DNA of 64,000 nt, taken from Emiliania huxleyi CCMP1516. Taxonomy: Eukaryota. Below, piece by piece: positions 11,006 to 53,417 of this stretch. A program made the translations under genes and the position numbers. The notes below the pieces were generated by a model, which worked only from the letters and a program-made list of their open reading frames with translations, was not told the DNA's origin and searched no databases. Location: contig NW_005201287.1 in assembly GCF_000372725.1 (NCBI RefSeq), forward strand, positions 527,081 through 591,080. The letters run 5' to 3'. Position 1 is the first letter of the stretch. The number at the start of each line of letters is the position of its first letter.

Positions 11006-11455
11006 AAAAACTCGCCCAATAATTGAATATAGGTAGCACGTAGGAGAGGCCAAAATGCAAAAAAAGAGTCACGTAATGCATATCGCACCCAAGAGTGCAC
11101 TCACTGTGTGTGCAGAGAGGGTCTGTATGGTGCAGATGCTCTCTATGCAGACTGCATGCTGCATGCACATGTCTCATACACAGAGAGAGAGAGAGAGAGA
11201 TTCGCAAAATGCACGCTCCTGCAAATCCCCTCTCGCCTCTGCCGGAGGCAATGGAGGGACGTCTTGCGAGCGGGGCGCCTCAGGGGCGCCCTCGGGACGA
11301 CAAGCTCACCAGTACACGGGGGGGGGGGGGGGTGCGGCGATGAACGTTAGCATCGCGCCGTGTTTCCCCACGCGCAAACAAAGGCCAGAGTCGCGCGGGT
11401 TGCAGCTGGCATTCTATGCTCCAGAGCATTCGCAGACGCCGCACCGCCCCATTAA

Positions 11456-20460: not shown

Positions 20461-22114
20461 ATGAACGGCGAAGCGAGCATCCGCTGCGTCGTCCACCTGC
20501 GCGGCCTTCTCTGGTCGTGCACGCCTGACGACGTGCGAGCATCTGTCTCGCCGCTCCTTCCTGCCCGTTGTTTCTTGCACGATGTCTTCCTGCCGCTCGA
20601 TGCACGGGCGCGCCCCTCCGGCACCGCCGTGCTCGTGCTGCACGCGGAGCGGCCTGCCGCCGCCTCGAGCGAGCGCAGCGTCGACGCGGCGGTCGCCGCC
20701 GCCGCACGCCGCATCGCAGTCGCTCTGGACGGCGCGGTCGTTCGCGGCGATGACGATGCCTCAGAGTCCGTGCGCCACCTCCGTGCCACGCCTTCGTCCG
20801 CCCGCGCGCTCAAGGAGAGCCGCGCCCGCTCGTCTGCCGCCGCCGCTCGTGCTTTGTCGCTCGCGCCGCAGAGCTTCAATGCAGGCGCCGCAGCCGCCAC
20901 CACTGCCATTGCCGCTGCTCCGAGCCGTCGTGACTTTGTCGTCGTCTGCCACGCGGCGGCGGCGGCGGCGAGTGGCGCCTTTGAGCTGTCGGACCTCAGC
21001 CGTGGGCGCGTCGACCTCATCGCGAGGTGATCCCTCTCCTCCTCGCCCCGCACGGTCATGTCCAGATCACGCCCAAGACACGTCCACAACACACGACCAC
21101 CCCGTTCTGCAGATGCGCCTCTGCCGCCCTCTTCACGTCGCACGGCGTCCGGCGCGGCTGCCGCCTCTGGCTGCCTCTCGTCGGTGCGCTCCGCCTCGCC
21201 ACCCGCACACTGCCCGCACACAGGGCCGCCACCTCAGACGCGTCCACCGCGCACCTCACCCTGATTCCGCGCCACAGCCCGCGATCATACCCTCATCTTC
21301 GAGATTGTATTTGTCGAGGCGCCCACCACACTCGCGTGTCCGTCCAGGCGGCGGCCTCACCCTCTGTCTCGACGGAGACCGCGCGCGCCGGCTGAGGCCC
21401 GGCGAGCGCTCGACCTATCGAGCATTGGCGAGGATTACTTACTTCATACGTCGAGCTTACAGGCCCGACGAGCGCTCAATCGCCGCGCCTCTCCGCGTGG
21501 TGCTGAGGCGGCACGTGCAGGAGGTGGTGCCCGGGGGGGAGGAGGAGGCTGCGGCCTCGGACACGGCTGCAGCACCCGCCGGTGTGGCTGGGGAAGCGGA
21601 GGGGGGTGGTGGGGTGGACGGCGGCGGCGAGGGCGGCGGCGGCGGCGGCGGCGGCGAGCGTGGCAAAGGAGGTAGCGGTCTCGGAGGCGGCGAGTGGAGT
21701 TCGCAAGGGTGGAGCGTGCACGGTGGCGACAGCCTCGAGTCGCTGCTTGACAAGCTTGGGTGCGCGTCGGCGGAGGGGGGGCGGTGCGGCGGGCGGGGCG
21801 CCTGCGGTGGCCGCACGCGGCTGGTTGCGCTGCACGAGGGCGGCGGACCGCTCGGGCGAGTGGTCGCCTCCAGCGCCGCGCACGAGGCTGGCGGGCGGGC
21901 GGCTGGCGGCGGGCGGGAGGCGGGCGAACCGGCTGGTGGGGAGAGGCGGAGGGTGGTGGCAGTGCTGGGGGACCACCTCGGCCTTACGACGCAGGAGGAG
22001 GAGGCGCTTCGGAGGCGCGGCGCCGCCTTCTGCACGGTCGGCCCGACGGCACTGCTCAGCAGCCACTGCATCGTCCTCGCCCACCACGCCCTCGACATCC
22101 TGGATGCGGGGTGA
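20461..22114 (+). CDS. trmY: RRM-like domain fused to TrmY-family SPOUT tRNA (pseudouridine54-N1)-methyltransferase
   Basis: Predicted exons 20461-21026, 21113-21183, 21348-21396, 21463-22114. Spliced protein: RDFVVVCH...FELSDLSRGRVDLIARCASAALFTSHGVR...LCLDGDRARRLRPDERSIA...LHEGG...VLGDHLGLTTQEEEAL...VGPTALLSSHCIVLAHHALD, collinear with TrmY motifs (GRxDxxxRC, SHxxR, PDERS, LxDH, LGP, H, LD). N-terminal VHLRGLLWSCTPDDV...RPSGTA resembles an hnRNP F/H-type RRM. Confidence 0.85.
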
Positions 22115-32112: not shown

Positions 32113-34470
32113 TTACTGGGAGAAAAGGGAGAGGGGGCTGTCCGATGTGGCGGCAAACTTGATGTCCCTGCGAGAGCGCCTCAGCTTAGCGACCGCCGCC
32201 TTGTGCTTCCTTCGCTCCGCAAGAGTCAGGTCCGGCGAGACCCCACCGTTGCCCTCCCCCTCCTCTCCTGCAACGCCAGCTATGCTCGTGGCACAAATGA
32301 TGGCCTGCGTCAGCGTCCCGACGAGCTCCTTCGCCTCATCTACCGTGGTGGCGACTAGCGCCGCGTCGAAGCCCTCGGACGGGGCCGGCCGGCTCAGCTC
32401 ACTCGCAAACTTGTGCACGACAGCGGCCGCTCGCTCTCCGGCCGGCAGCGTCGGGTGGCGCCTCCGCACCATCACGCGCCCGAGGCACTCCTCCACCGGG
32501 AGGTCGAGGTGCACGCTGGCGACAACACAACCATGCTCGCGGCCGAGGGCGACCCACGGTTCCCGCTGAGCCGGGTCGGCGTTGCAGCGGTCGATGATGA
32601 CGCTGCGCCCCGCCCGGAGCGCCTCTGTGGCGGCCTCGATGCACAGCCTGCGGGTGCCACACTCATCCTGGCTCACGTGTCGCAGGCGCCGCCCGACCGC
32701 CTCGCCCAGCTGCCCGCACAGGGTCGTCTTGCCAGAGCCAGGCAGTCCCACAAGAGTGAGGAGCAGAGGCTGGCCAGCCACGGCATGGAGCGCCGCACCC
32801 GCTGTCTCCTCGGGCGGGGGGAGGCGTCGAGCCGCCTCAATCGCCGCCTCCACCTCTCCAATTGGCGCATCGCGAACCCACTCCGCTCCGCCGGTAAGGG
32901 ACAGTCGGCGCAAATCGGCCGCCACCTCGTCATACAGCGGCCGGAGGCGGGGGAAGTAGGAGAGGAACTCGTCGCCCTCGCGGCAGCGCGCAACCTCGAG
33001 CAGGCGCCGCCGCTGCAGTCGGGGATCGGCACCCCCTCCCGAAGCAACGCCCTCCTCGCCGGGCGGAAGGCGGTGCAGCGCCACGTAGCCGGGCGACTTG
33101 ACTTTGATCCGGCGGAAGGCGGAGTCCACGCAGACAAAGCCCTCCTGCTCCACCGGATTGAGTGCGCACGCCGCTGCCTTGACGCTCGTCAGGTCATGCG
33201 GGCCGGGAAGCTTGCGCGGCGCCGCCCAGCCGAGCTGCGCAGCCGCCTCCTCGACGTCCTCCTCCACGAGCGTCGTCAGATCCCGCGCGCCGATGAGGGT
33301 GAGCGACGCTCTGGAGTGCCTCACCACGATCGTGTTTCCCGGAAGGCAGAGCTCAAAGGTGTAGCAGCGGCCGGTGGGCTCAGGCAGCCGGTAGCCCGAC
33401 GCCGCAAACGTCTCCCAAAAGTGCGAGGCGAAGGTCCCGACGCCCACTCCCGGCACCTCGCCCGCTGCGTCGGGCACGCGCATCGACGAGACGTGCCAGC
33501 GGTCGCAGTGGTGGTAGAGGGTGGCGATCGAGCCGTCAAGCTTCTCGTACACGCGCGCCGTGCTCCAGTCAAAGGCCTTGCGGACGGCGGCCGCCGCCGG
33601 CTCGTCCGCGTTGAAGAACTTTGTGAAGGGCAGCGCGACCACCCTCCAGCTCCCCTTCTCGAGGATGAGCCCGCGACACTCCTGGACAACCTCGTTGGCG
33701 AGGTCTGACTCGCGCTGCGAGTACGAGAGCTGGACGAGCGGCAAGTGCGGGTGGAGGCGCGAGGTGAGCTTGTAGGCGCTGCAGAGGGACGTGAGGTTGG
33801 CGCCAGAGCGCAGCTGTCGGACGATGCGGAGCGTGGCACGCTCGTCGCGACGGCGCGAGGCCTTGGCCGAGGTGCTGCAGCTCGCTAGCGGCACGAGGGT
33901 CGGTGGGTCAGCGCCTGCTGCAGCGCCCACGGCGGCGACCGCCGCCTCTGACGTTTCCTGCCCCTGGAGCCAGGAGGCCCTCTGAGCAAACGAGTGCAGA
34001 GCAGCCACGAACTCGCCGCGCGGGTTGGCGCAGCGGCGCGCTTGCCGGACGGCGGCTAGTGCCTCGTCAACGCCAAGGCCGCGATACTTGATCAGGTACG
34101 CCATCACCATCGTCGTGGAGCGGCAGATTCCCGCCTTGCAGTGGCAGAGGACAGTTCCTCCCTTGGCCAAGTGCAGGGCGATGAAGTCAGCGGCTGGGTC
34201 GAGGTGTCGACCAGCCTTTGCGTGACTGTCGTCCTTCAGCCGCACGTCTAGGTAGGTGAACGTGTCCACGAAGTGGCAGCGGCATCCACACGCGATGATC
34301 GCAGTGACACCGGCGGCTTGCAGCTTCTCGCGGTTGGAGGCAAACGACTCGCCGGATAGGAGCAGCTTTGAGCTTTCCGTGTCGAGGATGACTGCGGCGC
34401 CGACCGGGCCGTGGCGCTGGGCCACAGGAGCGCGCGGGGCGCCGTAGGCCTTGTTGTTGCGCTTGGGCAT
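32113..34470 (-). CDS. Tri-domain protein: dual-specificity phosphatase + T4 Rnl1-like ATP-dependent RNA ligase + P-loop polynucleotide kinase (AAA_33)
   Basis: DSP signature VLCHCKAGICRS (about 34117-34150). Ligase motifs ECRGLIL, LPFTKFFN, YEKLDGS (motif I, about 33529-33549), YTFEL, EGFV, RIKVK. Kinase LVGLPGSGKTT...VSQD...VIIDRCN...RRHPTL...EGF. Intronless; ATG at 34470. Confidence 0.9.
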   Translation of the reverse strand: MPKRNNKAYGAPRAPVAQRHGPVGAAVILDTESSKLLLSGESFASNREKLQAAGVTAIIACGCRCHFVDTFTYLDVRLKDDSHAKAGRHLDPAADFIALHLAKGGTVLCHCKAGICRSTTMVMAYLIKYRGLGVDEALAAVRQARRCANPRGEFVAALHSFAQRASWLQGQETSEAAVAAVGAAAGADPPTLVPLASCSTSAKASRRRDERATLRIVRQLRSGANLTSLCSAYKLTSRLHPHLPLVQLSYSQRESDLANEVVQECRGLILEKGSWRVVALPFTKFFNADEPAAAAVRKAFDWSTARVYEKLDGSIATLYHHCDRWHVSSMRVPDAAGEVPGVGVGTFASHFWETFAASGYRLPEPTGRCYTFELCLPGNTIVVRHSRASLTLIGARDLTTLVEEDVEEAAAQLGWAAPRKLPGPHDLTSVKAAACALNPVEQEGFVCVDSAFRRIKVKSPGYVALHRLPPGEEGVASGGGADPRLQRRRLLEVARCREGDEFLSYFPRLRPLYDEVAADLRRLSLTGGAEWVRDAPIGEVEAAIEAARRLPPPEETAGAALHAVAGQPLLLTLVGLPGSGKTTLCGQLGEAVGRRLRHVSQDECGTRRLCIEAATEALRAGRSVIIDRCNADPAQREPWVALGREHGCVVASVHLDLPVEECLGRVMVRRRHPTLPAGERAAAVVHKFASELSRPAPSEGFDAALVATTVDEAKELVGTLTQAIICATSIAGVAGEEGEGNGGVSPDLTLAERRKHKAAVAKLRRSRRDIKFAATSDSPLSLFSQ

Positions 34471-35442
34471 GGCTAGCGGGTCGTGGACGCGTTCGGACGC
34501 GTCGTGAGGGGCGTAAAACCCCAAAAAGTTTTTTTGTGATCGGGGGCACGGGACGCGGCACAGAAGGGGCACAAACGTCAGGCTACAAACACGGGGAGGC
34601 ACGTAGTGACGCAAGGGAGTCTAGGCGACGGTGGCGTCCTCCGACGCCGCGGCGAGCCTGCCTGTGACTGAGCTCGGTCGGTCGCAATCTCATTCGCCGC
34701 CGCGAGCTGCAGCGCGACTGACATGCGCTGGGCCTGCAGCGACAGCCACGTAGACCGCGTCGACCAGCTCGCCTCGTCCTCGTGCTGCCGCTTGGAGAGC
34801 TTGATGCTTGTTGCGCATCTTGTCCTTCATCATTCTGGTAGACGCAGCCGCTTGACCGCGTTGCACACCGGAAAAAGGTTTCTCGACCAGGTACGTCTGT
34901 ACGTCGGTGTCCGAGCGCGAGAGGGCGGCGTGCGCGGGTGCGCGTAGTCCGCCTTCTTGTTCCGACGCTTTCGCCCAGTCCCGTGCCTGCGGAACATCTG
35001 AAGGCTGTCTCGCCGGAGGCTCGCCCCAGCATCTCGGGTTCACTCGCCCCCCCGGGCAAGAAGGGAGGACCCCGTGAGGCGTGGGAGTGATTGGGGCCGG
35101 CTTTGCTTTTTCTCTCCGTGAGGACGATGGCTTCTAAGGAAGCCGTCGTCTGCGCCTTGTCGTGTGAATCGTGCGTGTGCGAGAGCCTTTTGCATCTGTA
35201 AGAAAAAAGAAGATGCTGACGGAAAGTGTGGTCTGAGCGCCTTGTAGGTGGCATGAAGGTTGCAGCGAGAATCGGCGAGGGACTGCGAAGGGAGATAGAA
35301 AGAGGCAGACGACAAAGGGTTAGGGTGGGCGACGGCTAGCACCACACTCCTCTCCTTAAAATCATCGTGTTTTCTTCTTTGAGCGCCTTGTACTCGAGTA
35401 AAAGTTCTGCCACCCCTCGCCGCTGAAGACAGTGCTCTCGCG

Positions 35443-36288
35443 ATGCCCAACATGGACGTCTCGCTGGACGAGCTCATCGCTTCGAACGCCAAGCAGGCGT
35501 CGAAGAAGCCGGGCCGCGGCGGTGGCGGGCGCGGGCGCGGCGGCGGGCGCGGCGGGCGCGGCATCACAAAGCCCGGCAAGAGGGCGGTTGTGGTCAAGAA
35601 AAAGGCCGGTGGTGGTGGTGGCGGCGGCCGGAAGCGGCAGGGCGCCGAGGTAAAGATCGGAGCTATGACGGATATCAAGCTCGCGGCGGGCGCCGTCGCC
35701 AACATGATGCGCGAAGGGACGCCGCCGAAAGTACTCGCCATCAGCCCGACGTGCGTCAACGCGGCCGTCAAGACGCTCGCGCTCGCCCGCCGCTACCTCG
35801 AGGAGGAGGGACTCGAGCTGATGGCGACGGTCGACTTTCCTGAGTTTGACGAGTCGGCCAACTCGGTCTCTCTCTCTCTCTCTCAAAAGCCCTCCTAATC
35901 CTTGTCTTCCTGCAAACCCTCACGGGCTCGGTCGTCTCCTCTCCAGGCGAACGTCGCGCTGCACCTCTCTCAGAAGCGGAAGCGGACGGACCTGTCGACG
36001 GTCGCGGCGCAGCTGCAAGTCTCCTCCTCCTCCGAGCCGTCCAAGGTAGCGGGCGCCGTGGCAGGCACGGCCCGCGAGTGCGCAGACCAGCCCGTCAAGC
36101 GGCTGTGCGTCTCGTGCGCCGGGCCGGCGGCGATGCTCGTCTCGCTCCAGGCGGTCTACCTCGCCCGCCGCTACCTCGAGGAGGACGGGCTCGACCTCTC
36201 CGTCGTGCCAGAGTTCGAGAATGTCGAGCGCGGGCCGTCGATCGTCCATCTCTTCACGCTCGTGCACAAGCCGAACGCGGCGCTCTGA
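35443..36288 (+). CDS. Tandem SpoVS-domain protein with N-terminal ALYREF-like (MDxSLDxxI) motif and RGG tract
   Basis: Exons 35443-35865 and 35947-36288 (GT-AG, phase 0). Two SpoVS-like units: VKIGAMTDIKLAAGAVANMMR...CVNAAVKTLALARRYLEEEG and LQVSSSSEPSKVAGAVAGTAR...AGPAAMLVSLQAVYLARRYLEEDG..VVPEF, compared with SpoVS LKVSAKSxPNSVAGAxA...GAGAxNQAVKAxAIARGF...PAF. Confidence 0.8.
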
Positions 36289-36704
36289 GAGCTGCGCCGC
36301 GAAGTCGTTGATGGTAGGAGGGGAAGAGAGGGCTGAGAGGCTGCTGTGTTCGGCCAACCCACACTCCCTAACTTATTTGTACGTACGTGTGAGTGTGTGC
36401 ATGGATGTCCGTGTGAGTATGTACAACTCTTTCGGTGAACAGCTGCCAGCTGTGTGTGGCACTTGGTGGAGTGCAGTTATCAACTCCGCACACCCCGCTG
36501 CGACGATTCTTTTTTCTCCTTTTTCGCGGTGTGTACGCCCCCCAGCGGTGCCGGCCGTTTCGCAATTTGCAGCGGCACAAATCTTGAACAGAGTGGGCCC
36601 CCTGGCGATTCTCGGTTGGCTTGTCGATTCTGTCTCGTCAGCGGGCGCCGAAGTGCAAGTGGCGGTTGCAAGGTTGCAACAACGGGAAACGCCTAAAACA
36701 CATC

Positions 36705-37271: not shown

Positions 37272-38333
37272 CTAGTACTCAACAAGCTGTGTGGCGTCTG
37301 GGCCGGCGTGGCCCATCGACAGCCCTGCGTTCCACGCAAAGCCTGCGCTGAAGCTCAGCAGCATGACTAGCGCCAACAGCGCCACCACCGCAGCCACCGC
37401 AGCCACCGCAGCCATCGCAGCCACCGCGACGCCCAGCGCGATGTGCGACGACTTGGCGTCGGCGATCGCGCCGGCTGCAGCCTGCGCGTGCCCCCACACC
37501 ACACCCGGCAGCGCCTCGCCGATAAAGGCGGGCAGATTGGCGAAGACGCGGTCGACGGCTCGGTCGACGATTGCCGTTTCGAAGTGGAGCCCGTCGAGGA
37601 CCTGCGGCACCACGCGGTCGACGATCCGGTCGACGTTGACACGGTCGACGATGCCGTCGACGTTGATCTGCTCGACAATCCGATCGACGTTCACCTGCTC
37701 GACCACCCGCTCCGCGAGGTACGCCGGGTTGACCGCCATGACGGCCCGGTCGACGATGTGGTCAGCGCCTTGGGCCGCGAGGCGGGTGGGGAGCCACGGC
37801 TGCTGCGGCGGCTCGCTGTCGGCGCGGCTGCGACGCGTGCTGCCCTGCGCGACCGCCCTGGTCCGCCTCCGCGGCATGATGGCGCCTTTGCATGATGGCG
37901 GCGCCGCCACGGAAGCGCCAGCAGAGGCTTCCCGCCGCGAGGCTTCCTCCTTCGAGGGTGGCAGGCATTTGAGGAAGTAGCTCTGCCAGCCGATCTGGGC
38001 GCGCGGGACGACGCTCGCCCTGGTCGAAGTTCCACCGCTGCGCCTGGTCAGGGCGACGCGCCACTTCTGCGCCTCCTCGGCAGAGCCGGCCATAAGGACG
38101 AGGCTTCGCTGACCCTTGCTCAGCCGGATGCAGTTGTCCTCGATGGCGGTGATTGCCGTGTCCTTCGTGACGGTGAAGGAGCCGCTCGCCGCGACCGCCT
38201 TCTCCTCCTCTCCGCCTTGCGGCTTGTACCACTCGAGCTTGTCACCACGCAGCGAGAAGTAGCGCCGCCGCCAAGGAGAGAAGGCGTTGTCGGAGTGCTT
38301 GCGCAGCCACCCCTCGGTGGTCGTGCGTGCCAT
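37272..38333 (-). CDS. PH-domain protein with (V/I)NVDxIVxx repeats and a C-terminal transmembrane segment
   Basis: EGWLRKHSDNAFSPWRRRYFSLRGDKLEWYK...LMAGSAEEAQKWRVAL is a classic PH domain; hydrophobic C-terminal stretch. Alternative upstream ATG at 38408. Confidence 0.8.
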   Translation of the reverse strand: MARTTTEGWLRKHSDNAFSPWRRRYFSLRGDKLEWYKPQGGEEEKAVAASGSFTVTKDTAITAIEDNCIRLSKGQRSLVLMAGSAEEAQKWRVALTRRSGGTSTRASVVPRAQIGWQSYFLKCLPPSKEEASRREASAGASVAAPPSCKGAIMPRRRTRAVAQGSTRRSRADSEPPQQPWLPTRLAAQGADHIVDRAVMAVNPAYLAERVVEQVNVDRIVEQINVDGIVDRVNVDRIVDRVVPQVLDGLHFETAIVDRAVDRVFANLPAFIGEALPGVVWGHAQAAAGAIADAKSSHIALGVAVAAMAAVAAVAAVVALLALVMLLSFSAGFAWNAGLSMGHAGPDATQLVEY

Positions 38334-38962
38334 TCTGTGCAGCCGGCCAATGAAGAGGAATGCGTAGGCCGCGGGGGTCGCGCTGCGGCTGTCGGCTGCT
38401 GAGGCCATGGCTGTAGAAGAGCGGTGTGGCGAGAGGACGAGGAGTCGGCCAGGAGAAGCGGGAAGGAAGCTTGAGGGACACGCAAAAGAATTTTACAACT
38501 CAAAAAGAATCGAAAGCGGAACGGGAGGCGCCTGAATCAAAAGACACGGCGACATCCTTGAGACGCGCGAGGGCAGCCTCCTTAAAAGGCAATGGGGTCT
38601 AGATTTGGAGCGCTCGCCGAAGAGGAGTACGACAAAATCGCGCCCGTGGTTGCCTGCACGCTGCCAGCACTGACAGACTCCCTGCCCGAAAGGAAGAGAG
38701 AGGAGCTCGCCGGAGAGGTGACGAGTGAACTACAGGTAGTGGGGAAGGCAGCTTCGATTGCCATACAGACATGGGCGCGAAACAACGACAAGACCAAGGC
38801 ACGGGCAGAGGAGCGAGAGAAGAACATAGCTCATAGGATGGATAGGGCGCCTGTTCACGGCATGGAGGGTGAGCCACGATGAACGTAATGAACGTAGAGC
38901 CGAACGAGAGGAAGCCGGGGAAGACGACTCCGAGGAGGACGAAACACCAGTGGTAATCCCGC

Positions 38963-43250: not shown

Positions 43251-44134
43251 CGTTGTTTGATGATGGATTCCTCTCGATGTGAAGATCCCCCCATTCAGAT
43301 CCCCCCATTCGGTGGCGCGAACAGCTTCAGCTTTTCTCGCCCGCTCTGCTGAGGGCGAGGCGCCGAGCTTCGGTTCCAACGCTGCAGCACTCTCCCTCTA
43401 TTCACAGCAGAGAGGCGACGCGTCCTCACGCGCGTCCTCGTCCCCACCTGCTCTGCTTCAACGTGCTGCCATGGAGCCAGCGCGCCTCGCGCCATGATTC
43501 AATCGCCATGGCCGGAGCGCTGTGGACCGCAACGGTCCGTGGCCGCTGTGCGGCGGCACGCGCAGGCGCTGCACAGATCAGAGCATTGGCGCCGAGCATT
43601 CAGTTTCCGCATTCAGTTGTCGTTGTTCTGTCGGCTCGAACAGCCCGTACAGCCATTCAGCGGCTGGTGGATAGCGCACAGTCTCCACGGCGGATCCGTG
43701 AATCTCGTGCACACCGGCTGGAGGCGCAAAGCGCCGCCGCCGTATGGACCAGCCCGATGGACCGTGTTTGTGGTCGGGATGGACAGTCTTGGTGTGGCCG
43801 TCCAGCGTATCACTGCAGAATGAAGCAGCGACACGCAATACACAGACGAAGCTGGAACTGCCGGGTCCAGCGGCCGATCTGCGTCGGGCGATCGCTGGGA
43901 ATTGACCGAGCTTGCTGCTTCCGGAATGGCATCACGGATTTGCCTTCGTGGGTATGAGCATAGCAGCAAGCGGTCGCGCGATGGGACGCGCGACGCACAG
44001 CAAATACAGCAGCGAGAGCGTCTAGTGTTGACGCAGGTAACGGGCGAGGTCCTGGGTGCAGAACCCGCCCTGACTCTGCCGATCCACCGGATTGCGACTC
44101 GACTGCTGATACCAGTCAACTGCTGAACGTGTGC

Positions 44135-45240
44135 TGGCGGGCAGCTTGAACTGCTGTCGCCCCGCCAGAGTATATCTCGACTAGCTCTACATCGAGAAGA
44201 AAGTCGTCTCGGGCGCCGCGTCGTCGGCGGCGGGGCGGGCGGGCAGCTGGATCTGCTGTCGCCTCGCCGGAGTGTATCTCGACTAGCTCTCCATCGAGAA
44301 GAGCGTCGACTCGTGCGCCGCCTCGTCGGCGGCGTGGCAGGCGGGCAGCTGGATCTGCTGTCGCCTAGCCAGAGTATATCTCGACTCGCTCTTCATCGAG
44401 AAGAGCGTCGTCTCGTGCGCCGCCTCGTCGGCGGCGTGGCGGGCGGGCGGCTAGATGTGCCGTCGCCTCGCCAGAGTATATCTCGACTCGCTCTACATCG
44501 GCTAGAGTGTCGTCTCGTGCGCCGCCTCGTCGGCGGCGTGGCGAGCGAGCAGCTGGATCTGCTGTCGCCTCGCCAGAGTATATCTCGACTCGCTCTCCAT
44601 CGAGAAGAGCGTCGACTCGTGCGCCGTCTCGTCGGCGGCGTGGCGGGCGGGCGGCTGGATCTGCTGTCGCCTCGCCAGAGTGTATCTCGACTCGCTCTAC
44701 ATCGGCTAGAGCGTCGTCTCGTGCGCCGTCTCGTCGGCGGCGTGGCGGGCGAGCGGCTGGATCTGCTGTCGCCTCGCCGGAGCATATCTCGACTAGCTCT
44801 TCATCGAGAAGAGCGTCGTCTCGGGCGCCGTCTCGTCGGCGGCGTGGCTGGCGAGCAGCTGGATCTGCTATCGCCTCGCCAGAGCATATCTCGACTCGCT
44901 CTACATCGGCTAGAGCGTCGTCTCGTGCGCCGCCTCGTCGGAGGCGTGGCGGGCGGGCAGCTGGATGTGCTGTCGCCTCGCCAGAGCATATCTCGACTCG
45001 CTCTGCATCGGCTAGAGCGTCGTCTCGTGCGCCGCCTCGTCGGCGGCGTGGCGGGCGGGCAGCTGGATGTGCTGTCGCCTCGCCAGAGCATATCTCGACT
45101 AGCTCTCCATCGAGAAGAGCGTCGTCTCGTGCGTCGTCGTGCGCCGTCTCGTCGGCGGCGTGGCGGGCGGGCGGCTGGATCTGCTGTCGCCTCGCCGGAG
45201 TATATCTCGACTAGCTCTCCATCGAGAAGAGCGTCGACTC
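44135..45240. repeat. 102-bp minisatellite, left array (about 11 units)
   Basis: Unit translates as a 34-aa repeat LVRRLVGGVAGGQLDLLSPRQSISRLALHREERR. Confidence 0.9.
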
Positions 45241-45438
45241 TTGCGGCGCGCTGGCATCGCCGCCGCCGCCTACTCTCCTTAACCTCGGGGCGAGATCGAG
45301 ATCTCGGTGATCTCGGGCGGTCTCGAGCGAGATGTTGGACATGGGCTCGACGTGGTCCGCGTGAACTGATGTCGATCATCACGCCGTCGAGACTTTAGCA
45401 AGGCGTGTGGCGCGCCGGCAGAGCCGCCGCCGCCTAAG

Positions 45439-46141
45439 GTACTGTCAGGGTCCCTACGGGGAGCGACGGTTCGAAGGGTACTGTCTCGAGGTACTGTCAG
45501 GGTCCCTTCGGGGAGCGACGGTGCCTCGAGACGGTGCCGTACTGTCAGGGTCCCTACGGGGAGCGACGGTTCGAAGGGTACTGTCTCGAGGTACTGTCAG
45601 GGTCCCTTCGGGGAGCGACGGTGCCTCGAGACGGTGCCGTACTGTCAGGGTCCCTACGGGGAGCGACGGTTCGAAGGGTACTGTCTCGAGGTACTGTCAG
45701 GGTCCCTTCGGGGAGCGACGGTGCCTCGAGACGGTGCCGTACTGTCAGGGTCCCTACGGGGAGCGACGGTTCGAAGGGTACTGTCTCGAGGTACTGTCAG
45801 GGTCCCTTCGGGGAGCGACGGTGCCTCGAGACGGTGCCGTACTGTCAGGGTCCCTACGGGGAGCGACGGTTCGAAGGGTACTGTCTCGAGGTACTGTCAG
45901 GGTCTCTTCGGGGAGCGACGGTGCCTCGAGACGGTGCCGTACTGTCAGGGTCCCTACGGGGAGCGACGGTTCGAAGGGTACTGTCTCGAGGTACTGTCAG
46001 GGTCTCTTCGGGGAGCGACGGTGCCTCGAGACGGTGCCGTACTGTCAGGGTCCCTACGGGGAGCGACGGTTCGAAGGGTACTGTCTCGAGGTACTGTCAG
46101 GGTCCCTTCGGGGAGCGACGGTGCCGTACTGTCAGGGTCCC
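45439..46141. repeat. 100-bp satellite (about 7 near-identical units) nested inside the 102-bp array
   Basis: Unit = 32-bp core GTACTGTCAGGGTCCCTWCGGGGAGCGACGGT twice, separated by constant 20-bp and 16-bp linkers. Confidence 0.9.
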
Positions 46142-46147
46142 TGTGCC

Positions 46148-47175
46148 CCGTCTCGTCGGCGGCGTGGCGGGCGGGCGGCTGGATCTGCTGTCGCCTCGCC
46201 AGAGCATATCTCGACTAGCTCTCCATCGAGAAGAGCGTCGTCTCGTGCGCCGCCTCGTCGGCGGCGTGGCGGGCGGGCGGCTAGATCTGCCGTCGCCTCG
46301 CCAGAGCATATCTCGACTCGCTCTACATCGGCTAGAGCGTCGTCTCGGGCGCCGTCTGGTCGGCGGCGTTGCGGGCGGGCGGCTGGATGCGCCGTCGCCT
46401 CGCCAGAGTATATCTCGACTAGCTCTCCATCGAGAAGAGCGTCGTCTCGTGCGCCGTCTCGTCGGCGGCGTGGCGGGCGAGCAGCTGGATCTGCTATCGC
46501 CTCGCCAGAGCATATCTCGACTCGCTCTACATCGGCTAGAGCGTCGTCTCGTGCGCCGCCTCGTCGGCGGCGTGGCGGGCGGGCAGCTGGATGTGCTGTC
46601 GCCTCGCCGGAGTGTATCTCGACTAGCTCTTCATCGGCTAGAGCGTCGTCTCGGGCGCCGCCTCGTCGGCGGCGTGGCGGGCGGGCGGCTGGATCCGCTG
46701 TCGCCTCGCCGGAGTATATCTCGACTAGCTCTACATCGGCTAGAGCGTCGTCTCGTGCGCCGCCTCGTCGGCGGCGTGGCTGGCGAGCAGCTGGATCTGC
46801 TGTCGCCTCGCCGGAGTGTATCTCGACTAGCTCTTCATCGAGAAGAGCGTCGTCTCGGGCGCCGTCTCGTCGGCGGCGTGGCGGGCGGGCGGCTGGATGT
46901 GCTGTCGCCTCGCCAGAGTATATCTCGACTAGCTCTACATCGAGAAGAGCGTCGTCTTGTGCGCCGTCTCGTCGGCGGCGTGGCGGGCGGGCGGCTGGAT
47001 CTGCTGTCGCCTCGCCAGAGTATATCTCGACTAGCTCTTCATCGAGAAGAGCGTCGTCTCGGGCGCCGTCTCGTCGGCGGCGTGGCGGGCGGGCAGCTGG
47101 ATCTGCTGTCGCCTCGCCAGAGTATATCTCGACTAGCTCTCCATCGAGAAGAGCGTCGACTCGTCCGCCGTCTCG
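46148..47175. repeat. 102-bp minisatellite, right array (about 10 units)
   Basis: Same unit as 44135-45240. Confidence 0.9.
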
Positions 47176-47622
47176 ACGGACGGAACTCGGAGGGCGTTGT
47201 CCACCCTAAGATGGACGGAACTCGGAGGGCGTTGTCCACCCTAAGATGGACGGAACTCGGATGCGTTGCCTCGCGACTGAGTCGGCGCGCGTCGTATTCC
47301 AGCCAGAAGGGTGCTGTCGCTCCGGGTCGGGCGGCACTGCTCGCCGCGTCCGGGTGCTGCGCGCCTGCGCCTCCCGATGAGGTCGGACGGCGTGGTATTA
47401 TGGCCGCCGCGCCTTGGTTGCACCGGAGCACTCATGTGCACAAGCCTCGCGAGAGCGGCTCGCGCAGGCGCAGCGACGGCCGGGGAGGCCTCGCACCAGA
47501 TGCACTGTCGGCGTCGTTCTACGCGGGCCGCTCGTGGACTGATTGACTACGGTTCTCGCGTGGGGGCGCTGTGCTGTGCCGTACCGGGCTCGACCACGTC
47601 GTCAAGCCGTCGAAGTCCGAGA

Positions 47623-48570
47623 CGTGGGGAGGCACAACGCCCAACCACGCCAGGGCCCCGTCGAGATCGTCGTCGCCGCGACATCGAGACCTCCGGTGAT
47701 CTCGGGTGATCTCGGGTGATCTCCGGTGATCTTCGGCGGTCGGGCGGCGTCGATCTCCGAGAGGGAGTCGAGTCTAGCGTTCCTCAAGATGACGCACTAC
47801 TCAACTCAACCCTACGCCCGCATCGATGTGGGAGGCAAGGCCACCCGTCGATGCGACCTGCTACCAAGCGGTGGGGCAGGAGATTGGAGGGGCCCCTTGC
47901 AGAGGTGGCGCGAACAGCTTCAGCTTTTCTCGCCCGCTCTGCTGAGGGCGAGGCGCCGAGCTTCGGTTCCAACGCTGCAGCACTCTCCCTCTATTCACAG
48001 CAGAGAGGCGACGCGTCCTCACGCGCGTCCTCGTCCCCACCTGCTCTGCTTCAACGTGCTGCCATGGAGCCAGCGCGCCTCGCGCCATGATTCAATCGCC
48101 CCCACCCGCCCTCTTCCTGGCGATATTCATGGCTCAGAGCTGATTGAGCTCTCTTTATTCATGGGTCTCAGTGGAGAGACGACTTGAGGAGACGACTAGT
48201 CTCACTCCCCCGCTTTCGTCACGCAGCGTGTTCTGTTCATGTGTGTCGTGATGTGTCTGTCGGCCCTGGCATGTTGTCTGTCCCAGGGCGTGGGGAGGCA
48301 CAACGCCCAACCACGCCAGGGCCCCGTCGAGATCGTCGTCGCCGCGACATCGAGACCTCCGGTGATCTCGGGTGATCTCGGGTGATCTCCGGTGATCTCC
48401 GGCGGTCGGGCGGCGTCGATCTCCGAGAGGGAGTCGAGTCTAGCGTTCCTCAAGATGACGCACTACTCAACTCAACCCTACGCCCGCATCGATGTGGGAG
48501 GCAAGGCCACCCGTCGATGCGACCTGCTACCAAGCGGTGGGGCAGGAGATTGGAGGGGCCCCTTGCAGAG
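47623..48570. repeat. Pair of about 280-bp direct repeats (47623-47903, 48289-48570)
   Basis: Near-identical CGTGGGGAGGCACAACG...GGCCCCTTGCAGAG. The intervening 47904-48098 is itself a copy of about 43310-43505. Confidence 0.85.
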
Positions 48571-49927: not shown

Positions 49928-51553
49928 TCACCTCTCGCCCTTCTCGCGGACACTCGGCCAGGACATCGGGTCGCACCAGCTGCGGCCGGGCAGCATGATG
50001 TGCCAGTAAAACCACGGCAGCGCGTGCCGCTTGAACGCCCACGCGAGCCGGGACGGCGCGGTGTTCTTGATCAGCCAGCCCGGGAAGCTGGGCATCAGCT
50101 GCCCCCCCCACCCAAACTCGGCCAGAACAACCTTGCCCTTCTCGACCGTCAGCGGGCAAGCGCCGTACCCGTCGTAGACCGCCTCTGTCGGCCTGGCCGC
50201 CGCCGGCGCCAGGTCCTGCAGCAAGTTGTGCACGACGACCGGCGCCTGCTTGCGCGCAGCGGCCATGGTTTTGGCGTTCGGCGCGGAGACGCAATCGCCG
50301 GCGGCAAAGACGTTTTCAAAGTCGACGTGGCGCAGCGTGTCGTGCTCGACGGCGACGAACCCCGTGGCGTCGGCCAGCGGCGATTCGCGCACGCACCGCG
50401 GCGCACGCATCGGAGGCACCACGTGCAGCATCTCGAACTCCTATGCCCGACGCTTCATCTGATCACTAACCAGTCCCGAGCCACCGCGCGAAGCGCCTCT
50501 CGAACTCCTTCTCGACGAGCTGGCCGTCGGCGGTCTGGAACTTCGCGCGCCTCGCTTGCCCATCCACCGCCACGAGGGTGTGGCCATAGCACTCGGTGGC
50601 GCCGTACCGGTCCATGTAGCCCTGCAGCGTCGGCACAAACTCCTTGACGCCAAAGAGCGCCGGCCCAGCCGAGCAGAAGGTCAGGTCGACCGCCGCGCCG
50701 GCGCTCTCCCAGGCGTGCGCAGACAGGTAGAGCGCCTTTTGCGGCGCGCCGGCGCACTTGATTGGCATCGGAGGCTGCGTGAAGATCGCGCGCGGCCGTC
50801 GCCCTCCGGCAGTCGCCTGGACGAGGCGCGGCCGAGGTGCGGCCGAGGTGTGGCCGAGGTGCGGCCGAGGCGCGGCCGAGGTGTGGCCGAGGTGCGGCCG
50901 AGGTGCAGCCGAGGTGCAGCCGAGGTGCAGCCGAGGTGCGGTGCGGCCGAGGTGTGGCCGAGGCGCACCGACAGCTGCTCCACCAGCTCCGCCGTGTACT
51001 GACAGGAGCTGAAGTCGTAGTTTGACGTCACGCCATTCCGGCCGAGGGTAGGCTCGAGCCCTTCGATGGCGCCCCAGTCGAGCTCCAGCCCGGGGGCCAC
51101 CACGAGTCGCTTATACCGAAGAGCGCTCGACTTGCCCTCTTCCTCTCGCAGCCGGAGCTCGTTCTTTTCCGGCACAAACTCGAGCGCTTCCTTTTGGATC
51201 CACTCGACCTGCTCGGGAATCAAGCTCGCCATGTCTGCCCGAGTCTGGGCCGCGTCGAAAGCGCGCCCTCCCACCAGCGTCCAAGCCGGCTGGTAGTAGT
51301 GGGTGCCCGAGGGCTCGATTAGCCCAATGCGCAGATCCGGTGCCTTCTTCCGCAGCAAAGCACAGATAGAGAGGCCAGCAGCCCCGCCACCGACGACAGC
51401 GACATCGTAAATTGGCGCAGCCGACGTGCTGACCGACCGCCGCGCCGAGTGACAGGCCAGCGAGGTGAGCGGGCGCCGAGCGGCGCGACAGGCCAGGGAG
51501 TTGAGCGGGCGCCGAGGGGCGCGACAGGCCAGGGAGGCCAGAGCTGCCCCCAT
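49928..51553 (-). CDS. sqr: Sulfide:quinone oxidoreductase (type II), putatively mitochondrial
   Basis: YDVAVVGGGAAG (FAD), HYYQPAWTLVGG, LVVAPGLELDW, LGRNGVTSNY, FTQPPMPIKCAGAPQKALYL (catalytic Cys), MLHVVPPM, NVFAAGDC...PNAKTMAAARKQAPVV, YDGYGACPL (second Cys), LAEF. Introns at about 50816-50965 and 50441-50507; Arg/Ser-rich N-terminal presequence. Confidence 0.92.
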
Positions 51554-52016
51554 AGGGGGGCTTGCCAACAGCAGCCGGCAGTTGGGGAAACCCAGACGGG
51601 CCCCCTCCCCCCCCCCCCCCGAGCAGCGGCGTTTGGAAGAATTTTAAATGCAACTGCTCCAAGTGCAACTCCTGGATGTGTCTGTTTTCTTTCTTTCTTT
51701 TTACTCCTGGATGTGAGGTTAATGACTGCACTCCAAGTGCTCCAAGTGCTCCTTCGCACGACACTGGGCACGGGACTGGCGCGCACTGGCACTAGCACAG
51801 GTACACCACGCTCCACGGGAGCCGTCCTGCGTTTGGGAAGAAAGCGATTAGTCCGCTTGGGATGTGAAACACTCTGTGCCGCCTCCCAAGCCAATAGTGT
51901 CTCAGGGTCTCTGCCTGACACACATTCCTGCATGCACAGTCACAAACGGTGTAGAGGGACTCATGTCGTGCCACAGGGGCCGGATGGGTAGCAATGTTCG
52001 CATCTTCGGACGCATC

Positions 52017-52629: not shown

Positions 52630-53417
52630 ACACAAGAAAAGAAATTTCCCCCGAACCGCGTCGAACCCATCCAGCGGGCTCTCTCGGCTACGTAACACCG
52701 GAAAATAAGTTCCACGGGCTAGGGGGCACAAGCTCGTCAGCTGTCATGATGTACCCGAAGGGAACCCCAGCGCCAACACCGACGTGGAGTACAAGTGCTC
52801 GAAACGAGAGTGGATCTGAGCAACGACATGACTTGGCGGCAAATGATCCGAGTCGGAGTCAGAAGAGTGGTCCTTGCGGGCTTGCGCAAGGCTCGATAAA
52901 CCAAAATACGATGAGGAGAGGGCGGAGATACGCTGAGAGGCGAGAGAAGCCGCGAGAGCAAGGGATCGACAGCGGCGGCGCAAAACGAGGCCGAGGAGAG
53001 CGCGATGAGTCAGAGGCATGGTCAGAGGATGAAACAGCAGGAGAGAGACGACGAGAGTGGGAAGAACGCGAGGTGGCATGAAGGTCGCTGCGAGAATCGG
53101 CGAGGGACTGCAAAAAGAGAGATAGAAAGAGGCAGATGCCCAAGGATGGGCGACGGCTAGCACCACACTCCTCTTAAAATCCCTGTGGGTGGCGGCGTGT
53201 GCCTTCCTCTCATCCCTCCCTTGCGCGGTGCGGTTATTTCTTTCTTTCCCCACCTGCACGAGCAGGATTTTGGAAGGACGATCAGGGGACTGGGTTGGAC
53301 AAATTCTTTTTCCAGAGCGTCTCACCTTGTCAGGACCTCCGTCTACATCGAGCGTCGACCTTTGCCGCCGAAGCCACAAAGCTCAACGGCCGCCCGCCGC
53401 CGCCTCCGCCACACTCG

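What the first reader, a model, noticed from the sequence alone, without database searches (positions are those of the whole stretch)
35443..36288. Eukaryotic tandem-SpoVS protein with an ALYREF-type export motif and RGG box
Seen: N-terminal MDVSLDELI, then an RGG/Lys-rich tract, then two SpoVS-like domains separated by an intron. Known: SpoVS is a small bacterial Alba-like nucleic-acid-binding dimer, and MDMSLDDII is the UAP56-binding motif of ALYREF/Yra1, which normally flanks an RRM. Inference: an ALYREF-like adaptor in which a fused SpoVS pseudo-dimer replaces the RRM.
Basis: partly seen in the sequence, partly recalled or inferred. Interest (0 to 1): 0.8.

Follow-up and report, generated by a model that had tools for sequence, protein, structure and literature searches.

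The report
ALYREF-type head fused to tandem SpoVS
This two-exon algal-type gene encodes a protein whose first residues and arginine/glycine-rich tract match the front end of the mRNA-export adaptor ALYREF and whose body is two bacterial-type SpoVS domains in tandem, so it is predicted to dock on the helicase UAP56 and likely helps package or export nuclear mRNA, which has not been tested.

Summary
35443-36288 (+) is a two-exon gene (81-nt GT..AG intron, 35866-35946) for a 254-aa protein. It has an N-terminal MDVSLDELI, a Gly/Arg/Lys tract, and two Pfam SpoVS domains, both above the gathering cut-off. AlphaFold gives one compact two-domain body (pLDDT 92.9, pTM 0.88). Its best structural match is Thermus SpoVS (Z 14.8), followed by Alba proteins.

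It belongs to a large unstudied family: 410 representatives, mostly tandem SpoVS. The members that carry organism names are all eukaryotes: haptophytes, chlorophytes, a chlorarachniophyte, dinoflagellates, a diplonemid and an ichthyosporean.

A profile of 22 family N-termini, searched against all PDB sequences, hits only ALYREF proteins (REF2 E 7.6e-12, human ALYREF 6.5e-5). The match covers the UAP56-binding motif and a PYSRP element. The motif core occurs in 39 of 159 family N-termini, against 1.5 expected by shuffling.

So the ALYREF N-terminal module on a SpoVS pseudo-dimer is shown. UAP56 binding and an export role are inferred, because the complex predictor was unavailable. Unlike ALYREF, the protein has no RRM, C-terminal UBM or WxHD motif. 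No paper in my searches links SpoVS to mRNA export. I rate it a new variant of a known kind.

The parts
35393..35442 (+). 5' UTR (minimum extent)
   Evidence: Contigs of the sequencing runs start at 35393 (X1) or 35430 (X2, X3) and run into the coding sequence (table 8). There is no in-frame ATG upstream of 35443 in the open frame that begins at 35383.
35443..35865 (+). Exon 1 coding part (residues 1-141)
   Evidence: Translation. It ends at a GT donor. P0010 joins residue 141 directly to exon 2.
35452..35478 (+). ALYREF-type N-terminal UAP56-binding motif, MDVSLDELI (residues 4-12)
   Evidence: It aligns with kMDMSLDDIIKLN of REF2 (E 0.34 on its own). The family profile hits REF2 at E 7.6e-12. 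The core is enriched in family N-termini. The equivalent residues of orthologue P0004 are predicted as a short helix.
35503..35640 (+). Gly/Arg/Lys-rich disordered tract (residues 21-66), including RGG repeats
   Evidence: Sequence and composition (pI 12.0 for residues 1-66). The equivalent region of P0004 has pLDDT 42-54.
35644..35865 (+). SpoVS domain A, first part (residues 68-141)
   Evidence: Pfam PF04232, 45.7 bits. Strands and helices E20-22, H29-41, E47-50, H53-71 and E76-82 of the P0010 model. Z 8.9 to RPP20/25 and Z 7.7 to IF3-like folds over model residues 19-105.
35866..35946 (+). Intron, 81 nt, GT..AG, with an in-frame TAA
   Evidence: Sequence and GC 0.56 against 0.69 for the coding sequence. 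It is absent from P0010 and from all orthologues. In 4 of 4 runs the contigs break exactly at 35866 and 35946, and a separate, lower-depth 139-nt contig carries the intron.
35947..35982 (+). SpoVS domain A, last strand (residues 142-153)
   Evidence: Strand E95-102 of the P0010 model. The alignment of the family is colinear here.
36007..36279 (+). SpoVS domain B (residues 162-252)
   Evidence: Pfam PF04232, 60.2 bits. Sequence match to 2eh1_A, E 3e-7. Structural match Z 14.8, rmsd 2.0 over 85 residues, model range 113-202.
36286..36288 (+). Stop codon TGA
36289..36503 (+). 3' UTR (approximate)
   Evidence: Contigs run to 36493-36503. In run X4 a loose end behind 36493 ends in a run of A (tables 7 and 8).

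Best explanation
The gene at 35443-36288 encodes a 254-residue eukaryotic protein that joins an ALYREF-type N-terminal module (UAP56-binding motif plus Arg/Gly-rich tract) to two tandem SpoVS (Alba-superfamily) domains; it is predicted to bind the DEAD-box ATPase UAP56 through that motif and likely works as a TREX-type mRNP packaging or export adaptor.

Shown: the gene model and splice, both SpoVS domains, the confident compact two-domain fold, membership of a large family whose named members are all eukaryotes, and statistically significant similarity of the family's N-terminal region to the N-terminus of ALYREF/REF2 and to nothing else in the PDB.

Inferred mechanism, by analogy with ALYREF, UIF and LUZP4:
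- The short N-terminal helix (MDVSLDELI) would dock on the RecA2 lobe of UAP56, where the ALYREF N-UBM binds.
- The basic disordered tract (pI 12) would be the main RNA-binding surface, and possibly the export-receptor-binding surface.
- The SpoVS pseudo-dimer sits where ALYREF has its RRM. It would serve as a structured platform for weak RNA contacts or, more probably given its acidic pI (5.3 and 6.1), for protein partners on the mRNP.

The tandem arrangement (A-type domain, then B-type) is old and conserved, which is consistent with a single ancestral duplication.
For: Gene and splice.

SpoVS domains: Pfam 45.7 and 60.2 bits against a cut-off of 24. Sequence match to Thermus SpoVS 2eh1 at E 3.5e-6 and 3e-7.

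Fold: AlphaFold2 of P0010 (the spliced form, 203/205 identical to the window over residues 50-254) with 131 aligned sequences gives pLDDT 92.9, pTM 0.88 and two beta-alpha-beta-alpha-beta-beta units. Foldseek's top hits are SpoVS 2ek0/2eh1 (E 3e-7, TM 0.82-0.84 on the target) and B. subtilis SpoVS 9a7h_B, followed by Alba, Rpp20/25 and Pop6/7. VIA-align gives Z 14.8 for SpoVS, and 10.1, 9.0, 8.9 and 8.6 for Alba-type proteins.

Family: 410 representatives at E<=1e-3. Of 162 with domain calls, 125 are A-B and 6 are A-B-A-B. The first/second-domain label changes 10 times on the tree, against a shuffled mean of 86. An AU test does not reject all first domains forming one clade (p 0.43; 45 of 129 proteins).

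N-terminal module: the motif core is present in 39 of 159 M-starting members, against 1.5 in shuffles, with only 2 matches in 31,097 residues elsewhere. A profile of 22 N-termini hits, at E below 1, only REF2 (7.6e-12, 6e-11) and human ALYREF/THOC4 (6.5e-5, 8.7e-4); the next hit is LSm4 at E 2.3. The alignment spans MADKMDMSLDDIIK and RNRPAPYSRPK. In orthologue P0004 the motif is a helix (residues 7-14) ahead of a disordered tract.

Named taxa with the motif: Coccolithus (P0006), Chlorarachnion (P0079), Trebouxia (P0119) and Symbiodinium (P0034 cluster).

Literature (passages read): UBMs are necessary and sufficient for DDX39 binding, Arg-rich regions are ALYREF's main RNA and NXF1 sites, and UIF and LUZP4 were both found by BLAST with the UBM and then shown to be adaptors (PMC5095910, PMC4344508). 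SLDD/E is the core of the UAP56-binding motif (PMC4797287). The N-UBM binds the UAP56 RecA2 lobe (PMC12823420).

Docking-site residues in 13 environmental UAP56 orthologues: R276 in 13/13, and E309 as E in 11 and D in 2.
Against: - No binding or function test was done. The complex predictor was unavailable.
- On its own, the window's N-terminus aligns to REF2 only at E 0.34. The significant result is for the family profile, which did not include the window's sequence.
- The window's clade lacks the PYSRP element. The protein has no RRM, no C-terminal UBM and no WxHD motif.
- Only 39 of 109 family members with an N-terminal extension of 30 aa or more show the motif core. Its presence is scattered on the body tree (23 changes against a shuffled mean of 28.1, min 22). 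The SpoVS body therefore also exists without the motif, or many N-termini are mis-called.
- The two SpoVS domains are mildly acidic (pI 5.3 and 6.1), which does not favour strong nucleic-acid binding by the body.
- The A302-equivalent residue of the UAP56 N-UBM site is E in 4 of 13 and Q in 1 of 13 environmental orthologues, including the most GC-rich ones. The effect of this is unknown.
- The organism's own UAP56, and any canonical ALYREF it may have, could not be examined.
Confidence: 0.6

Rival explanations
1. The motif does bind UAP56, but the protein serves another UAP56-linked nuclear process rather than export. Candidates are splicing, R-loop control, or chromatin/DNA binding in the manner of archaeal Alba.
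For: The fold belongs to the Alba superfamily, which includes DNA-binding chromatin proteins (PMC2732212 predicted DNA binding for SpoVS). UAP56 and ALYREF also act in R-loop resolution (abstract of PMC11665464, seen in the listing). The protein lacks the WxHD and C-UBM elements that tie ALYREF to the EJC/cap and to the RecA1 lobe of UAP56.
Against: The whole N-terminal module, not just the motif, matches ALYREF. Both proteins previously found through the UBM, UIF and LUZP4, turned out to be export adaptors (PMC5095910 passages). The SpoVS body is acidic, which is unlike a chromatin protein.
Confidence: 0.2
2. The N-terminal acidic-hydrophobic motif is a look-alike with another partner. The protein would then be a general, possibly cytoplasmic, RNA-binding or translation-regulating protein like the Alba proteins of trypanosomes and Plasmodium.
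For: Eukaryotic Alba proteins with RGG tails are cytoplasmic mRNA-binding proteins in T. brucei (PMC3141063, title and passages). The window's own motif is not significant alone (E 0.34). About two thirds of the family members that have N-terminal extensions lack the motif core.
Against: The family profile gives E 7.6e-12 to REF2, and ALYREF proteins are the only PDB hits below E 1. The motif sits at the extreme N-terminus as in ALYREF, and is followed by RGG and, in 23 of the 39 motif-bearing members, a PY element. It is conserved across at least four named eukaryotic groups.
Confidence: 0.13
3. It is not a real eukaryotic gene. It would instead be bacterial contamination, a recent bacterial transfer that is not expressed, or a chance open frame in GC-rich DNA.
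For: SpoVS is best known from bacteria. High-GC DNA yields many spurious long open frames.
Against: The gene has a spliceosomal-type intron with an in-frame stop. The spliced product exists as an independent database protein. The stretch is present in an RNA-Seq library, with contig breaks at the exon borders and an A-run loose end. Hundreds of tandem relatives carry the same domain order, and all that carry organism names are eukaryotes.
Confidence: 0.02

Closest known systems
ALYREF / REF2 / THOC4 (yeast Yra1), the TREX mRNA export adaptor
   Same: An N-terminal UAP56-binding motif at the very start of the protein (MDVSLDELI against MDMSLDDII), followed by a disordered Arg/Gly-rich tract and then a small structured domain. 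In most lineages of the family there is also an R..PYSRP element, as in REF2 (RNRPAPYSRPK). A profile of family N-termini hits only these proteins in the PDB.
   Different: The structured domain is a tandem SpoVS pair and not an RRM. There is no second Arg-rich tract, no C-terminal UBM and no WxHD motif. The window's own clade lacks the PY element. Function is untested.
UIF (FYTTD1) and LUZP4, UBM-bearing adaptors without an ALYREF-like body
   Same: They share with ALYREF only the UBM and a basic region. Both were discovered by searching with the UBM and were then shown to bind UAP56 and to act in export (PMC5095910 and PMC4344508, passages). That is the same logic as here.
   Different: They are animal-specific proteins with no SpoVS/Alba fold. 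This family is found in algae and protists, and its N-terminal similarity to ALYREF extends beyond the UBM.
Bacterial SpoVS (Thermus thermophilus 2EH1/2EK0; Bacillus subtilis SpoVS)
   Same: The same Pfam family and fold: Z 14.8, rmsd 2.0 A over 85 residues, 33% identity for domain B, with sequence E 3e-7.
   Different: Bacterial SpoVS is a stand-alone protein of about 86-90 residues. Here two diverged copies (36% identical to each other) are fused in a fixed A-B order behind a eukaryotic disordered head, in an intron-containing nuclear gene.
Eukaryotic Alba-domain proteins (Rpp20/Rpp25, Pop6/Pop7; trypanosome ALBA1-4)
   Same: The same superfamily fold (Z 8.6-8.9). They often work as dimers or heterodimers on RNA and often carry RGG tails (PMC3141063 and PMC11621453, passages).
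   Different: No Pfam Alba hit; the sequence family is SpoVS. The two halves are in one chain. The head is ALYREF-like, which is not described for Alba proteins in the papers I read.

Membership tests
SpoVS (Pfam PF04232) | Match to the family profile above the curated cut-off | tested here: met
   45.7 bits (exon 1) and 60.2 bits (exon 2) against a cut-off of 24. Orthologues score 95-143 bits with two stretches.
SpoVS (Pfam PF04232) | SpoVS/Alba-type beta-alpha-beta-alpha-beta-beta fold matching solved SpoVS | tested here: met
   Model pLDDT 92.9. 2ek0/2eh1 at E 3e-7 and TM 0.82-0.84. Z 14.8.
SpoVS (Pfam PF04232) | Stand-alone single-domain bacterial protein of about 86-90 aa | tested here: not met
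   Two domains in one 254-aa chain with a 66-residue head, encoded by an intron-containing gene. It is a eukaryotic tandem offshoot of the domain family and not an orthologue of the bacterial protein.
ALYREF/REF/Yra1 export adaptors | N-terminal UAP56-binding motif (SLDD/E core) at the start of the protein | tested here: met
   The window has SLDE within MDVSLDELI, aligned to REF2. The family profile gives E 7.6e-12 to REF2, and the core is enriched in family N-termini. The motif definition comes from PMC4797287 (passages).
ALYREF/REF/Yra1 export adaptors | Disordered arginine-rich RNA/NXF1-binding tract after the motif | tested here: met
   By composition only: 17 K+R and 20 G in residues 1-66, pI 12.0. 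The region is disordered in the orthologue model. Binding was not tested.
ALYREF/REF/Yra1 export adaptors | Central RRM domain | tested here: not met
   Pfam finds only SpoVS in both halves and in ten relatives.
ALYREF/REF/Yra1 export adaptors | C-terminal UBM and second Arg-rich tract | tested here: not met
   The protein ends 2 residues after domain B. Across the family, only 2 motif-core matches lie beyond residue 60 in 31,097 residues.
ALYREF/REF/Yra1 export adaptors | WxHD motif (eIF4A3/CBP80 contact) | tested here: not met
   There is no W or H in residues 1-69 of the window protein. The motif definition comes from PMC4797287 (passages).
ALYREF/REF/Yra1 export adaptors | Physical binding to UAP56/DDX39B and to the export receptor | not tested
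   A UAP56 orthologue was fetched (L004, E 8e-205 to human DDX39B) and alignments were prepared (A4, A5). Complex prediction was busy or full at every allowed try.
Alba superfamily | Fold similarity to Alba, Rpp20/25 and Pop6/7 | tested here: met
   Z 10.1 (8xap), 9.0 (1nh9), 8.9 (6lt7), 8.6 (7dl8) and 7.7 (3iab).
Alba superfamily | Dimeric unit, here as an intramolecular pseudo-dimer | tested here: inconclusive
   pTM 0.88 for the two-domain model implies a fixed, compact arrangement. No coordinates were available to superpose on a SpoVS or Alba dimer.

The most novel reading that the evidence does not exclude
Tandem-SpoVS proteins with an ALYREF head are a second, ancient class of TREX adaptor. 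In this reading they are used across algae and protists (haptophytes, green algae, rhizarians, dinoflagellates). A bacterial-type SpoVS pseudo-dimer does the job of the RRM, and in some lineages the protein may be the main UAP56-loaded mRNA export adaptor. This would be the first cellular role for the SpoVS fold in eukaryotes, and it would show that the ALYREF N-terminal module is a portable cassette.
Probability: 0.35. Interest if true: 0.85.

Novelty: new variant of a known kind. Interest (0 to 1): 0.72.

Why it matters
mRNA export adaptors are known almost only from animals, fungi and plants. How most protist and algal lineages load mRNPs for export is poorly charted.

This family offers a concrete, testable candidate. 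It carries the ALYREF UAP56-binding head on a completely different structured body. Testing it would show which parts of ALYREF are essential (the head) and which are exchangeable (RRM against SpoVS pair).

It also gives a first functional lead for eukaryotic SpoVS-domain proteins. Databases annotate them only as 'stage V sporulation protein S'. None of the papers my searches found discusses them; the one mention was a linkage marker named SpoVS in Gonium (PMC4856071, one table).

Members in Chlamydomonas-type green algae would make genetics feasible.

Tried and rejected
- **Complex prediction.** I prepared a co-fold of the N-terminal 46 residues (alignment A5) with a UAP56 orthologue (alignment A4). 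The tool was busy, had a full queue or had not yet reopened. No prediction exists, so nothing can be said either way.
- **Whole genome.** None is held. I could not look for the organism's own UAP56, THO, NXF1 or a canonical RRM-type ALYREF.
- **Spliced junction in reads.** Read laying listed no joint across 35866-35946. The tool masked the CT repeat at 35857-35894 and says it dropped one joint row there in X4. Read-level proof of the junction is therefore missing, and the contig breaks at the exon borders are indirect evidence.
- **Other libraries and notes.** NCBIfam gave nothing relevant. Rfam gave no hits in the window or in the upstream repeat. Earlier notes of this scan gave nothing.
- **Word-indexed search with alignment A2.** It added only three short or unnamed proteins.
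- **Motif as a subclade marker.** I tested whether motif-bearing members form one subclade. They do not (23 changes against 28.1 shuffled).
- **Reading through the intron.** Rejected, because of the in-frame TAA, the independent spliced protein and the colinear orthologues.
- **Bacterial contamination.** Rejected; see the rival explanations.
- **Failed search.** One literature search failed on a term that was too long. I did not repeat it.

Full report
**Gene model.** The + strand between 35443 and 36288 holds two open frames in the same phase. They are separated by 81 bases that begin with GT, end with AG and contain an in-frame TAA. Exon 1 (35443-35865) gives 141 residues and exon 2 (35947-36285) gives 113, 254 in all. 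A database protein from an independent source, P0010, reads straight across the proposed junction (...DESANS|ANVALH...). It matches exon 1 at 90 of 92 residues and exon 2 at 113 of 113. Two other database proteins (P0003, P0016) are read-through mis-calls of the same locus in near-identical DNA.

I laid contigs from four sequencing runs on the stretch, one of them recorded as RNA-Seq. In all four, the exon contigs stop at 35866 and restart at 35946. A separate 139-base contig of lower depth carries the intron. That is the pattern expected if spliced and unspliced forms coexist. One run has a loose end behind 36493 that ends in a run of A. The tool masked the CT repeat at the donor site and listed no joint there, so this evidence is indirect.

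**The SpoVS halves.** Pfam SpoVS (PF04232, cut-off 24 bits) matches exon 1 at 45.7 bits and exon 2 at 60.2 bits. Each half also matches the solved Thermus thermophilus SpoVS by sequence, at E 3.5e-6 and 3e-7. The halves are 36% identical to each other.

AlphaFold2 on P0010 with a 131-sequence alignment gives mean pLDDT 92.9 and pTM 0.88, with two beta-alpha-beta-alpha-beta-beta units. The intron falls before the last strand of the first unit, not between the units. Foldseek against the PDB puts SpoVS first (2ek0/2eh1, E 3e-7, TM 0.82-0.84 on the target; B. subtilis SpoVS 9a7h_B). Alba, Rpp20/25 and Pop6/7 follow. The search that does not lean on Foldseek gives Z 14.8 (rmsd 2.0, 85 residues) for SpoVS, and Z 10.1, 9.0, 8.9 and 8.6 for Alba-type proteins. 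'Pseudo-dimer' is my reading of the high pTM. I could not superpose the model on a crystal dimer.

**The family.** A full scan of 1.84 billion representatives with exon 2 found 410 proteins at E<=1e-3 and 79 at E<=1e-10. I analysed 163 family proteins, leaving out the window's own pieces and three near-identical records. Domain profiles placed 125 as A-B, 6 as A-B-A-B, 13 as B-B and 4 as B-B-B-B, with a few others.

On a tree of 258 domains from 129 two-domain proteins, the first/second-domain label changes 10 times, against a mean of 86 (min 77) when shuffled. In a random 45 of those 129, an AU test does not reject all first domains being one clade (p 0.43). This fits one old duplication with a fixed order. 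Relatedness alone inflates such counts, and the profiles were built from family members.

Named members are few:
- Coccolithus and Diacronema lutheri, haptophytes
- Symbiodinium, with a four-domain form
- Namystynia, a diplonemid, and Amoebidium, an ichthyosporean
- Chlorarachnion and Trebouxia
- an ESM Atlas cluster of 65 members, all Eukaryota, most commonly Chlorophyta

The window's closest named relative is the Coccolithus protein (64% identity over alignment A1). I therefore infer a haptophyte-like alga, but this is not shown.

**The N-terminal head.** The window protein begins MPNMDVSLDELI. A tract with 17 K+R and 20 G in the first 66 residues follows (pI 12.0). Orthologues begin MDVDKSLDDII, MASIDMSLEDII, MDVGMSLDDMI, MDK(T/S)LDEMI and MNIDLSLDDII. 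Distant members begin ...KLDMSLDDII...KLDMPLDAIV...LDKSLDQII and similar.

A loose core pattern is found in the first 60 residues of 39 of 159 M-starting members. The mean is 1.5 (max 5) in 200 shuffles of the same N-termini, and there are 2 matches in the 31,097 residues beyond position 60. Of the 109 members with an extension of at least 30 residues before a complete first domain:
- 39 have the motif core
- 45 have a basic-PY element
- 44 have three or more RG/GR pairs
- 23 have both the motif and PY

The decisive test was a profile of 22 N-terminal regions (A3; the window's own was not included), searched against all 177,635 distinct PDB sequences. The only hits below E 1 were REF2 (8srr_C 7.6e-12, 2f3j_A 6e-11) and human ALYREF/THOC4 (8r7l_D 6.5e-5, 7znk_L 8.7e-4). 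The next hit, LSm4, had E 2.3. The alignment covers MADKMDMSLDDIIK, the Arg/Gly tract and RNRPAPYSRPK. So the family head resembles the ALYREF N-terminal region as a whole, not just a nine-residue motif.

On its own, the window's head aligns with REF2 at E 0.34, and its clade lacks the PY element. A full-length orthologue (P0004) is predicted with a short helix over the motif (residues 7-14, pLDDT about 70), disorder to about residue 100, and then the two confident SpoVS domains.

**What the head means.** From passages I read:
- ALYREF's UBMs are transient helices that are necessary and sufficient for DDX39A/B binding. Its Arg-rich tracts are the main RNA and NXF1 sites, and its RRM binds RNA only weakly. 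UIF and LUZP4 were each found by BLAST with the UBM and then shown to be export adaptors (PMC5095910; PMC4344508).
- SLDD/E is the core of the UAP56-binding motif, and WxHD is a separate eIF4A3/CBP80 motif (PMC4797287).
- The N-UBM binds the RecA2 lobe of UAP56. Mutations R276E/A302R/E309S abolish binding (PMC12823420).

I did not see the supplements or figures of these papers.

By analogy, I predict that this protein docks on UAP56 through its head, binds RNA mainly through the basic tract, and uses the SpoVS pair where ALYREF uses its RRM. Because the SpoVS domains are mildly acidic (pI 5.3 and 6.1), the pair may be more of a protein platform than an RNA binder.

**Attempted test of binding.** No genome is held for this window. 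I therefore fetched UAP56 orthologues from metagenome contigs with a degenerate pattern for a conserved UAP56 motif. L004:73-1344 encodes 424 residues with GC3 0.97, against 0.89 for the window gene. It matches human DDX39B at E 8e-205, far above other DEAD-box proteins.

In 13 such orthologues, the R276 equivalent is invariant. The E309 equivalent is E in 11 and D in 2. The A302 equivalent is A in 8, E in 4 and Q in 1. These are not known to come from the window's organism. The complex predictor could not be reached within the allowed tries, so binding remains untested.

**Against the reading.** The motif core is absent from about two thirds of the family members that have N-terminal extensions. 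Its presence is scattered on the tree of the bodies (23 changes against 28.1 shuffled, min 22). That means either frequent loss, or mis-called starts, or a body that also works without the head. The protein lacks an RRM, a C-terminal UBM and WxHD, so it is not a member of the ALYREF family in the strict sense.

**Novelty.** Sources label some members 'stage V sporulation protein S', so the domain annotation is not new. My full-text searches returned only bacterial work, Alba surveys that treat SpoVS as bacterial (PMC11621453, PMC2732212, PMC3141063; passages), and a Gonium linkage table that uses a marker called SpoVS (PMC4856071). The searches were:
- SpoVS with eukaryot (28 papers, 20 listed)
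- SpoVS with export (11)
- SpoVS with alga (3)
- SpoVS with RNA-binding (14)
- UAP56 with 'Alba domain' (2)

I found no paper linking SpoVS-domain proteins to UAP56, ALYREF or mRNA export. The library lacks most subscription journals.

**Verdict.** The function is inferred: confidence about 0.6 for UAP56-linked mRNP/export adaptor activity. It is a new variant of a known kind, the UBM-bearing adaptors. Interest 0.72.

Noticed in passing
window 35247-35363 and 53072-53180: A dispersed element of about 115 nt (GGTGGCATGAAGGT...CTTAAAATC) lies about 80 nt upstream of the SpoVS gene's ATG. A second copy, about 90% alike and on the same strand, lies just upstream of another + strand open frame. In all four runs laid, its summed word depth is tens of times that of the gene (thousands against tens in X2), with many loose ends, so it is probably a multi-copy transcribed repeat. 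There is no Rfam match.
   Followed up: partly
window 32113-34620 (-): The upstream neighbour on the other strand is an 835-aa open frame that combines a dual-specificity phosphatase domain, a T4-type RNA ligase domain (RNA_lig_T4_1) and an AAA_33 kinase-like domain. This looks like an RNA-repair-type fusion.
   Followed up: no
family members P0018-P0021, P0042, P0060, P0088, P0127, P0145, P0166: In a subset of distant family members, a conserved element of the form [YH]-x-H-[IL]-x-G-x-x-[LV]-[DE]-[DE]-[IV]-A sits directly before the first SpoVS domain, after the PY element. It looks like a second SLDD-like motif and stands roughly where ALYREF has WxHD. It is absent from the window's clade, which instead has K-V-V-V-V-G. 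Its meaning is unknown.
   Followed up: no
P0034 cluster (Symbiodinium), P0026 (Namystynia), P0023, P0029, P0033: Four-domain (A-B-A-B) SpoVS proteins of 380-500 aa exist. Some carry the same N-terminal motif (KLDMTLDELA in the Symbiodinium form).
   Followed up: partly
window 44007-47282: There are two blocks of ten 102-nt tandem repeats (about 90% alike), 44007-45248 and 46041-47282. They flank seven 100-nt repeats (45339-46238) that are up to 100% identical, all inside long + strand open frames. This is a repetitive coding or satellite region.
   Followed up: no
window 11318-12323 and 14862-15536; 43311-43507 and 47904-48100; 47623-47904 and 48289-48570: Several pairs of local duplications are 99-100% identical and 200-300 nt long.
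   Followed up: no
window 2276-3637 (+), 20465-22111 (+), 37275-38492 (-), 50684-51643 (-): Other Pfam hits in long open frames: an AAA_11/AAA_12 (Upf1-like) helicase, a SAM-dependent RNA methyltransferase C-terminus, a PH domain, and a pyridine nucleotide-disulphide oxidoreductase. No DEAD-box helicase was found among the 31 long frames scanned.
   Followed up: no
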